Source: Escherichia coli (GTDB taxonomy: Bacteria > Pseudomonadota > Gammaproteobacteria > Enterobacterales > Enterobacteriaceae). From it: DNA of 64,000 nucleotides. Positions 12,001-15,000 of this stretch are shown one piece after another. A program made the position numbers. Each line of letters opens with the position of its first letter. Within the stretch, counting starts at the first letter, position 1. The DNA lies in NCBI RefSeq assembly GCF_013315695.1, contig NZ_CP054353.1; one strand, written 5' to 3'.

Positions 12001-15000
12001 TGCCAGTAAAGTTGCTCAAACCGTTACGCGCCGGTTGCGGAACATAATCACGCCAGGCGACAGCGACCGGTCGAACAATATACGGGTCTAATACATTGAA
12101 GTTGAAGTTGTACATGGTGCGGTTGAACCCTTCTAACGGGTCAGAACGCCCTTGCTGATCTGTACCGGAACTCGCACACCCCACCAGAAGCGTAGTTCCC
12201 AGAGCAAGCGCCGACAGGCGAAGCTTCATAAATGTCTCCCTGTTTTTTTATGGCTTATGCAGTTTGCCATCCATGACGGAACGATACCGTATCCGCCTGT
12301 TTAGGTGTGGGCGATTGTAACAGCACGTCAACTGATGTCCAGACGCCCTGATTTGCTGATTTGATCATAGCCTGGTAATCGCCGCCCTGTAGGCTACTTG
12401 ATTCTATAGAAACAGAAAAAGGCAAACGCGGCCTTTTCTACATTTTCAGAGTAACTCCCGCCAGTTGCGAGCAAAAAAGCCGCTACGCTTTAGCTATACG
12501 TGCTAATTCAAGAGAAGAGACCATGGACAACGACAAAATTGATCAACACAGCGACGAAATTGAAGTTGAGAGCGAAGAAAAAGAGCGCGGCAAAAAAATA
12601 GAAATAGATGAAGACCGACTCCCCTCCCGGGCGATGGCAATTCATGAGCATATCCGCCAGGATGGTGAAAAAGAGCTGGAACGCGACGCAATGGCGCTAC
12701 TGTGGTCAGCCATTGCGGCGGGTCTGTCGATGGGCGCTTCATTACTGGCAAAAGGGATATTTCATGTCGAACTGGAAGGTGTGCCGGGCAGCTTCTTGCT
12801 GGAGAATCTCGGTTATACCTTTGGTTTTATTATCGTCATTATGGCCCGCCAGCAATTATTTACCGAAAACACCGTGACTGCGGTACTACCCGTCATGCAA
12901 AAACCGACAATGAGCAACGTTGGCTTACTTATGCGGTTATGGGGCGTCGTGCTGCTGGGTAATATTCTCGGGACAGGTATTGCGGCGTGGGCATTTGAAT
13001 ATATGCCAATCTTCAATGAAGAAACTCGCGATGCATTTGTCAAAATCGGCATGGATGTGATGAAGAACACCCCCAGCGAGATGTTTGCCAACGCGATCAT
13101 TTCCGGCTGGCTGATCGCCACTATGGTATGGATGTTTCCTGCAGCGGGTGCGGCAAAGATTGTGGTGATTATATTGATGACCTGGCTTATTGCCCTGGGT
13201 GACACCACTCACATCGTTGTCGGTTCTGTTGAAATCCTCTATCTGGTGTTTAACGGTACGCTGCACTGGAGCGATTTCATCTGGCCCTTCGCACTACCTA
13301 CTTTAGCGGGGAACATCTGCGGCGGCACCTTTATCTTCGCGTTAATGAGTCATGCACAGATTCGTAACGACATGAGCAACAAGCGCAAAGCAGAAGCACG
13401 CCAAAAAGCAGAACGTGCGGAAAACATTAAGAAAAATGATAAAAACCCGGCATAAATGGCGAGGGTTTAAGCAATCGAGCGGCAGTGTACTTACCCCGCA
13501 GTCCATTAGCGGGTATACTCATGCCGCATTGTCCTCTTAGTTAAATGGATATAACGAGCCCCTCCTAAGGGCTAATTGCAGGTTCGATTCCTGCAGGGGA
13601 CACCATCCTTGTGTTTATCCCTAAAACCACATAAAAACCGTAAATTAAATTCGAACTAGCAGGCCGAATAAGGCACACCCGGAACTCGTGGTTTTATTCA
13701 TTATGAAGTAGTTTTTACCTGTTCTCTTAACCAAGTAATAAATGCCTCAATTTTTGGCCACTGCCTGCCCGGTAATGTGGTGATGTAATAATGCTGATGG
13801 CATTTCACCGTCATATCGCCAAACGGCGCGACGAGCTCACCACTGGCAAGCCTTTTTTGTACCAGGCGTTTTCTTCCCATCGCTACCCCAATATGATTCA
13901 TCGCAGCGATAACAGCTAAATCAGAACGATCAAAGCCAATCCCAGAAGATGTCGGCAAATTAACCGCATAATGTTGCGCCCAACTATGCCATTCATCCGT
14001 ACCGGAGTCGTTGCTCCATGCCTGTCTGTCATGGAGCAACGTACAGTGGCGCAGGTTAATTACCTGGTTGGTTAAAGCATGTCTTTGAGCGTATTCCGGG
14101 CTACATACAGGCAGGATTTCTTCATCCATCAGAAAGTGATGAGCCAATTGCGCTGACGGCGCATCATCAAAGTAGATCGCCAAATCGATTCCGGCACGTT
14201 GCAAATTGACATTGTCATTACCAGTAAGCACGGTGAGCGAAATAGACGGATAGCGGCGTGTAAAGTCACCTAATGCGGGCACCAACCAGCATTGGGCGAT
14301 AGAGGGCCGGGAATACAGCGTTAACGTTCCCGATAATTCCTGATTTTTGATATCAAGAATTTCCTGGTTCAGGGTATCCAGCGACGATTTTAGCGCCCAA
14401 TAAACGCGTTTCCCCTCGTGCGTTAATTCCACTTTGCGATGGGAACGAACAAACAACTGAATACCTAATTCTTCTTCCAGCTGATTGATACGGTGACTTA
14501 CCGCACTGGGGCTCAGCGACAATTCCTCTGCCGCAAGGGCGAAGGACTGATGCCTGGCAGCCACTTCAAAAGTATGCAGTTTTGATAGTTGCCAGCCGTT
14601 AAGCAGTCGATTTCTTATTTCACGAAGGGGTTCCATAATCACCTCATTTTTCTCTTAAGTGTAAAAAAATAGCGGCAAAATTTCAGCTGTAAGGTGAGCT
14701 AAAGTGAACCATATCTCAATTCATCTTCATTTTTAGATGTAAATCACTCCATTGATGCAATTTAGCTCATGTGAAAGGCAAATTTTATCGTTTGTCAGCC
14801 TGCGTTGTTTTTTTGTCCAATATCATCAGGTTAATCACAGGGGAAGGTGAGATATGCACTCTCAAATCTGGGTTGTGAGCACGCTGCTTATCAGCATCGT
14901 GTTAATTGTACTGACCATCGTGAAGTTCAAATTCCACCCGTTTCTGGCGCTGTTGCTGGCCAGCTTCTTCGTGGGAACGATGATGGGTATGGGACCACTG

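What the first reader, a model, noticed from the sequence alone, without database searches (positions are those of the whole stretch)
13521..13700. Unoccupied argW integration site: tRNA-Arg(CCU) is followed directly by dsdC
Only about 105 bp separate the 3' end of the tRNA from the dsdC stop, with no integrase, att repeat or phage ORFs. In K-12 this tRNA is the attachment site of the CPS-53/KpLE1 prophage, and other strains carry islands here. The window therefore appears to show the empty backbone state, useful as a reference junction and a marker that the strain is not K-12-identical.
Basis: partly seen in the sequence, partly recalled or inferred. Interest (0 to 1): 0.35.

Follow-up and report, generated by a model that had tools for sequence, protein, structure and literature searches.

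The report
Empty argW phage attachment site
In this E. coli segment the tRNA-Arg(CCU) gene argW, a well-known landing site for phages and islands, has nothing inserted and is followed after 95 bp by dsdC; this state is ordinary, already described, and shared by about one in six complete E. coli genomes.

Summary
An intact tRNA-Arg(CCU) gene (argW, 13531..13605, +) lies between yfdC and dsdC (13701..14636, -). The gap is 95 nt, not about 105.

The window equals the left flank of K-12 attL joined to the right flank of K-12 attR. The two overlap at the published 16-nt KplE1/CPS-53 core, CTGCAGGGGACACCAT (13591..13606). The 95-nt spacer differs from K-12 at one base.

The core has no second copy in the 64 kb, even with up to 3 mismatches. 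No homolog of an integrase, excisionase or invertase was found. The annotation of a 99.99%-identical closed genome lists none between argW and dsdC.

Among 5,426 complete E. coli genomes:
- 911 (17%) carry this same uninterrupted junction.
- 1,867 carry the K-12-type argW-intS junction.
- 186 carry the Nissle/CFT073-type island junction.
- 27 carry one P4-like satellite junction.
- The rest carry other variants.

The same empty site has been described and tested as an attB in the literature (strain KP7, phage Kapi1).

The feature is real, already known and of low interest. Sequence alone cannot distinguish a never-occupied site from a precisely excised one.

The parts
12523..13455 (+). yfdC (formate/nitrite transporter family), the left backbone flank of the site
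   Evidence: ORF; weak FNT-family NCBIfam hit; annotated as yfdC in the 99.99%-identical genome MSB1_4I and in K-12.
13531..13605 (+). argW, an intact tRNA-Arg(CCU) gene
   Evidence: ARAGORN; Rfam RF00005 at 63.4 bits; identical to K-12 argW in alignment A1.
13591..13606 (+). attB core CTGCAGGGGACACCAT: the last 15 nt of argW plus 1 nt. It is the crossover/core site for IntS-family integrases.
   Evidence: It is the overlap between the window's matches to K-12 attL and attR. It is the only copy in the 64 kb with up to 3 mismatches. It is identical to the published 16-nt KplE1 core (PMC2951348). It lies at the start of the CUS-3 prophage record, where an 'attL core' feature is annotated.
13607..13700 (.). 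argW-dsdC backbone spacer with no recognisable gene or structure. The full gap from tRNA end to dsdC stop, 13606..13700, is 95 nt.
   Evidence: One mismatch to the K-12 pawZ-dsdC spacer. No significant fold on either strand: z = 0.28 and 1.30. No promoter- or terminator-like site in it. Only short chance-level repeats.
13701..14636 (-). dsdC, the LysR-type activator of D-serine catabolism and the right backbone flank
   Evidence: NCBIfam DsdC equivalogs at 602 and 596 bits; PGAP annotation in MSB1_4I.
14854..16191 (+). dsdX, D-serine transporter, intact
   Evidence: NCBIfam NF007395 at 940 bits, covering 1-445 of 445.
16209..17537 (+). dsdA, D-serine ammonia-lyase, intact
   Evidence: NCBIfam TIGR02035 at 813 bits.

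Best explanation
This is the unoccupied attB at the 3' end of the E. coli tRNA-Arg(CCU) gene argW, in the backbone order yfdC-argW-(95 nt)-dsdC-dsdX-dsdA. The last 15 nt of the tRNA plus one more base form the 16-nt core CTGCAGGGGACACCAT. IntS-family tyrosine integrases recombine this core with an identical core in attP. Elements that use it include KplE1/CPS-53, Sf6, HK620, CUS-3, Kapi1 and some Stx2 phages. Integration would split the site into attL (intact argW followed by int) and attR (a 15-16-nt tRNA-end remnant, as in K-12 pawZ, followed by the 95-nt spacer and dsdC). The incoming element would restore the tRNA 3' end. None of that has happened here, or it has been precisely reversed. 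What is shown: the anatomy, the single core copy, the absence of any recombinase, and collinearity with both K-12 junctions. What is inferred from published work on this core: that the site is competent for integration.
For: - Gene identities: tRNA and neighbouring genes.
- K-12 has argW, then CPS-53 (10.2 kb), then pawZ, then 95 bp, then dsdC.
- Window 11722..13606 matches the K-12 attL side and 13591..17507 matches the attR side. They overlap by exactly the 16-nt core.
- The spacer differs from K-12 at 1 nt.
- The core occurs once in 64 kb with up to 3 mismatches.
- tblastn with IntS, TorI, two other argW-associated integrases and IpuA/IpuB gives only chance hits, E >= 0.086.
- No integrase is annotated across the homologous region of the 99.99%-identical closed genome, which covers window 1..62432.
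- The same uninterrupted junction is present in 911 of 5,426 complete genomes at 97-100% identity. In the others listed, the match breaks at the tRNA 3' end (window about 13605-13608) and resumes at 13587-13591.
- Literature: the 16-nt core sequence (PMC2951348). The empty yfdC-tRNA-Arg-dsdC site in strain KP7 was shown to be the Kapi1 attB by deleting it (PMC8787464).
- 38 deposited phage records encode an integrase at least 95% identical to IntS.
Against: Nothing contradicts the empty state.

Limits:
- Only 64 kb of the genome is visible, so an IntS-type element elsewhere in this genome cannot be excluded.
- Integration competence was not tested here.
- The history of the site (never occupied or excised) cannot be read from sequence.
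- A scan of species-representative genomes for the exact junction gave no informative outgroup, so ancestry within the genus was not established.
Confidence: 0.96

Rival explanations
1. The site was occupied in a recent ancestor and is a cured site. An IntS-type prophage excised precisely through IntS plus the TorI-type directionality factor, restoring attB.
For: Conservative site-specific recombination restores exactly this sequence. KplE1 can still be excised in vivo (PMC2951348). About 83% of complete E. coli genomes lack the uninterrupted junction, so gain and loss must be frequent. A relative at 98.5% identity (strain N32) has the UpaE island genes in this region.
Against: There is no positive trace, and none is expected. 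The closest genomes (MSB1_4I, MS 21-1, and the 100%-identical OZ547117) are also empty, so any loss would not be very recent. This is a statement about history and is compatible with the best explanation, not opposed to it.
Confidence: 0.3
2. The site is not truly empty because dsdCXA itself is the argW-associated cargo. It would be an old, integrase-less 'argW-dsdCXA genetic island', with the real backbone resuming further downstream.
For: The literature names an 'argW-dsdCXA genetic island' that is highly variable (Moritz and Welch 2006, cited; the paper is not held). Many strains have cscBKAR in place of dsdCX next to argW (PMC4366372). In strain 155 an oligosaccharide MFS transporter gene follows the argW prophage remnant.
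Against: No second core copy lies anywhere downstream in the window, even with up to 3 mismatches. No recombinase is present. G+C of dsdCXA is 0.46-0.53, close to the E. coli average as I recall it, while emrKY-evgA next door is 0.37-0.44. In K-12 the prophage attR lies upstream of dsdC, so dsdCXA is outside the element that the integrase moves.
Confidence: 0.08
3. The junction is an assembly artefact: a prophage was collapsed out across the 16-nt direct repeat.
For: Repeat-flanked elements can be lost in poor assemblies.
Against: A 16-nt repeat is far too short to collapse an assembly. The identical junction occurs in 911 complete genomes, including closed genomes that are 99.99-100% identical over 25-37 kb.
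Confidence: 0.01
4. A degraded remnant of an element (integrase fragment or partial att) is hidden in the spacer.
For: None found.
Against: The spacer is 95 nt and matches the K-12 backbone spacer outside CPS-53 except at 1 nt. There is no core-like repeat and no tblastn hit to integrases in it.
Confidence: 0.01

Closest known systems
E. coli K-12 argW::CPS-53 (KplE1) attL/attR
   Same: Same tRNA gene. Same 16-nt core, CTGCAGGGGACACCAT. Same left flank (yfdC) and right flank (95-nt spacer and dsdCXA), at 98.9% and 97.8% identity.
   Different: K-12 has the 10.2-kb defective prophage (intS to torI) between two core copies, and the pawZ remnant. The window has one core and no insert.
Empty argW attB of murine commensal E. 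coli KP7, the Kapi1 integration site (PMC8787464)
   Same: Same arrangement: a tRNA-Arg between yfdC and dsdC with nothing inserted. The att core is at the tRNA 3' end, and deleting the 17-bp site abolished integration there.
   Different: Kapi1's duplicated att is 17 bp, with one extra base. In the window the base after the 16-nt core is C (13607), whereas the Kapi1 att has T there. So only the 16-nt core shared with Sf6, HK620 and KplE1 is matched.
PAI-CFT073-argW / Nissle 1917 argW island (OmpH-like, UpaE, IpuA, IpuB)
   Same: Same tRNA and the same yfdC-side flank; dsdCXA lies downstream.
   Different: About 12 kb is inserted. There is no phage-type integrase (only the IpuA/IpuB invertases) and no second core copy. 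The insert replaces the 95-nt spacer and the last codons of dsdC, and homology resumes at window 13715. It is absent from the window.
Tandem or other occupants: P4-like satellites and IntS-type P22-like or Stx2 prophages at argW
   Same: They use the same tRNA 3' end.
   Different: They carry tyrosine integrases immediately downstream of argW. The window has none.

Membership tests
Unoccupied argW attB (IntS/KplE1-family integration site) | An intact tRNA-Arg(CCU) gene in the yfdC ... dsdC backbone context | tested here: met
Unoccupied argW attB (IntS/KplE1-family integration site) | The 16-nt core CTGCAGGGGACACCAT at the tRNA 3' end | tested here: met
   Exact match at 13591..13606. The core sequence is as published (PMC2951348).
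Unoccupied argW attB (IntS/KplE1-family integration site) | Only one copy of the core, with no attL/attR duplication | tested here: met
   One match in 64 kb with up to 3 mismatches. K-12 has two copies, flanking CPS-53.
Unoccupied argW attB (IntS/KplE1-family integration site) | Flanks collinear with attL-left and attR-right of an occupied reference, joined at the core | tested here: met
   Window 11722..13606 matches K-12 attL and 13591..17507 matches K-12 attR. The spacer has 1 mismatch.
Unoccupied argW attB (IntS/KplE1-family integration site) | No integrase, directionality factor or cargo genes between the tRNA and dsdC | tested here: met
   tblastn E >= 0.086 for six recombinase/RDF queries. 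No ORF of 40 aa or more lies wholly within the gap. None is annotated there in the near-identical genome.
Unoccupied argW attB (IntS/KplE1-family integration site) | Supports integrase-mediated integration of a cognate phage | not testable with these tools
   Shown experimentally for the equivalent site in KP7 (PMC8787464); inferred here from core identity.
Occupied argW locus (prophage or genomic island) | Foreign DNA downstream of argW, bounded by a repeat of the tRNA 3' end and/or carrying an integrase | tested here: not met

The most novel reading that the evidence does not exclude
The empty site marks a lineage that recently lost an IntS-type prophage by precise excision. More usefully, it would make this IS-rich human gut lineage a naive recipient for argW-targeting seroconverting or Stx2-converting phages. 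That would make the junction a practical marker of susceptibility to lysogenic conversion.
Probability: 0.2. Interest if true: 0.15.

Novelty: already known. Interest (0 to 1): 0.07.

Why it matters
It matters little beyond bookkeeping. It gives a clean reference attB junction for argW: core at 13591..13606 and a 95-nt spacer to dsdC. That can be used to call prophage or island occupancy in other assemblies. It shows the strain is not K-12-like at this locus. Together with the intact dsdCXA it fits a commensal or ExPEC-type backbone rather than an EHEC-type one, in which csc replaces dsdCX according to PMC4366372. The site, its core and its occupants are all well described in the literature.

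Tried and rejected
- I folded the 110-nt spacer region on both strands to look for an argW or dsdC terminator or a small RNA. The energies are no better than shuffles, z = 0.28 and 1.30.
- The promoter/terminator scan found nothing in the spacer.
- Short repeats in 13400..13800 are 8-20 nt and at chance level. None involves the tRNA 3' end.
- An Rfam scan of the whole window found only the six tRNAs.
- I scanned species-representative genomes for the exact empty-junction 31-mer, hoping for outgroup evidence of ancestry. It returned only a 486-bp, 0.8x-coverage contaminant contig in a Terrisporobacter assembly, so the ancestry question is not settled.
- Moritz and Welch 2006 (PMC1698345), the primary description of argW-dsdCXA variability, is not held. 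I used only citations to it.
- The G+C profile gives no sign that dsdCXA is compositionally foreign.
- I considered and rejected a hidden remnant in the spacer and an assembly collapse (see rival explanations).

Full report
**What is there**

ARAGORN calls a 75-nt tRNA-Arg with anticodon CCT at 13531..13605 on the + strand. Rfam's tRNA model scores it at 63.4 bits against a gathering score of 29. Upstream lies a 310-aa ORF at 12523..13455, annotated yfdC in K-12 and in a near-identical genome.

Downstream, on the minus strand, is DsdC. Two NCBIfam equivalogs match at 602 and 596 bits over the full length. PGAP places the 311-aa gene at the equivalent of 13701..14636. Intact dsdX (14854..16191) and dsdA (16209..17537) follow.

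The distance from the tRNA 3' end to the dsdC stop codon is 13606..13700, which is 95 nt. No ORF of 40 aa or more lies wholly inside the gap.

**Comparison with K-12**

In MG1655 the order is yfdC, argW, cryptic prophage CPS-53 (2466369..2476583, intS to torI), the 15-nt pseudo-tRNA remnant pawZ, 95 bp, then dsdC.

A three-way alignment and blastn give the same picture:
- Window 11722..13606 matches the K-12 attL side at 98.9%.
- Window 13591..17507 matches the K-12 attR side at 97.8%.
- The two matches overlap by exactly 16 nt, CTGCAGGGGACACCAT (13591..13606).

This is letter for letter the duplicated KplE1 core published by Panis et al. (PMC2951348). It is also shared with Sf6 and HK620 (PMC8787464). 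It lies at the start of the CUS-3 prophage record, where an 'attL core' feature is annotated. The 95-nt spacer differs from K-12 at a single base.

The window is therefore what K-12 would look like after precise removal of CPS-53.

The test came back negative.
- The core occurs once in the 64 kb, even allowing 3 mismatches.
- Repeats within 13400..13800 are short, at chance level, and do not involve the tRNA 3' end.
- I ran tblastn of the window with six queries: K-12 IntS, TorI, two integrases from an argW tandem array in ETEC4077, and IpuA and IpuB from Nissle. Nothing scored better than E = 0.086.
- The window is 99.99% identical to the closed genome of strain MSB1_4I (human rectal swab, Australia) over 1..37000, and 99.0-99.99% identical from there to 62432. 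PGAP annotates no integrase in that region, only IS transposases.
- The spacer shows no significant RNA structure on either strand and no consensus promoter or terminator.

**How common the state is**

I searched a 401-bp query centred on the junction against 5,426 complete E. coli genomes. It is covered in one place in 911 of them (17%), at 97-100% identity. These include E. coli B-type ATCC 11303 and an O157:H16 strain.

In the other genomes listed, the match typically stops at window 13605-13608 and, where present, resumes at 13587-13591. That is the tRNA 3' end.

Equivalent junction queries gave these counts:

| Junction type | Genomes |
|---|---|
| K-12-type argW-intS | 1,867 |
| Nissle/CFT073-type island | 186 |
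| One P4-like satellite type | 27 |

Three sampled genomes from the remainder carry divergent IntS prophages or other P4-like elements. ETEC4077 has a tandem array of a P4-like satellite followed by an IntS prophage.

The Nissle island is not a clean att-flanked insertion. It has no second core copy and replaces the spacer and the last codons of dsdC.

In the phage collection, 38 records encode an integrase at least 95% identical to IntS. They include CUS-3 and the Stx2 phage VT2phi_272. The VT2phi_272 record also includes a tRNA-Arg and an annotated attL.

**Mechanism**

By established knowledge of lambda-type tyrosine recombination and the KplE1 module (PMC2951348), IntS binds and exchanges strands within the identical core in attP and attB. 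Integration leaves argW intact, because the element carries a copy of the tRNA 3' end. It produces attL, with int next to argW, and attR, with the core remnant next to the spacer and dsdC. Excision needs the TorI-type directionality factor.

The window shows the substrate state, attB. The anatomy is shown directly. That the site is competent is inferred from core identity and from the Kapi1 experiment on the equivalent empty site in KP7, where deleting the 17-bp att abolished integration there.

**What cannot be decided**

A never-occupied site and a precisely excised one have identical sequence.

A scan of species-representative genomes for the exact junction returned only a contaminant contig, so I have no outgroup evidence on ancestry.

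The literature's term 'argW-dsdCXA genetic island', and the replacement of dsdCX by csc in many strains, raise the possibility that dsdCXA is itself old argW-linked cargo. The evidence here does not favour that:
- There is no downstream core repeat.
- The G+C of dsdCXA is 0.46-0.53, close to the species average as I recall it.
- In K-12 the prophage attR lies upstream of dsdC, so dsdCXA sits outside the mobile unit.

**Verdict**

The feature is an already known, frequently observed state of a textbook tRNA attachment site. It is useful as a reference junction and of low scientific interest.

Noticed in passing
window 9535..10320 (IS1 at 9544..10311): A 768-bp IS1A copy has 23-nt imperfect terminal inverted repeats and a 9-bp target-site duplication, TTGGTATCG. 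It interrupts a yfdF-like ORF (9270..11294) in a low-G+C stretch (0.34-0.41). The IS1 accounts for the plasmid and multi-copy hits of the 25-kb query.
   Followed up: partly
window 51284..52630 (-), 56327..57535 (-), about 57543..57967: There is an IS4 transposase gene between pdeA and nupC. There is also an IS200/IS605-type remnant, a degraded tnpA plus an intact 402-aa TnpB (RNA-guided endonuclease family), between gltX and yfeD.
   Followed up: partly
window 41503..42540 (-): ypdE (aminopeptidase) carries an internal stop at codon 324 of 345. It is also flagged as a pseudogene in the near-identical genome MSB1_4I.
   Followed up: partly
window about 46437..46448 and 59760..60035: Compared with the 99.99%-identical closed genome MSB1_4I, the window lacks the ISEc45 (IS110-like) copy next to glk. 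It also has two rather than three tandem tRNA-Val(UAC) genes before tRNA-Lys. The source is therefore a close relative of that isolate, not the isolate itself.
   Followed up: partly
L004 20205..32499 (Nissle 1917): The UpaE/IpuA/IpuB island next to argW has no second att core. It replaces the 95-nt spacer and the 3' end of dsdC, giving a 315-aa DsdC. It did not arrive, or no longer looks as if it arrived, by simple IntS-type integration.
   Followed up: partly
L011 (NZ_JAHZMP010000156.1, 486 bp): The only species-representative hit to the empty-junction 31-mer is a 0.8x-coverage contig in a Terrisporobacter mayombei DSM 6539 assembly. It is almost certainly E. coli contamination of that assembly.
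   Followed up: no
L005 20132..36984 (ETEC4077): argW carries a tandem array: a P4-like satellite (integrase, toprim primase, P2-type capsid gene, MazEF-type toxin-antitoxin pair) followed by an IntS-type element with GtrA-family O-antigen modification genes. This shows serial use of the same attB.
   Followed up: no
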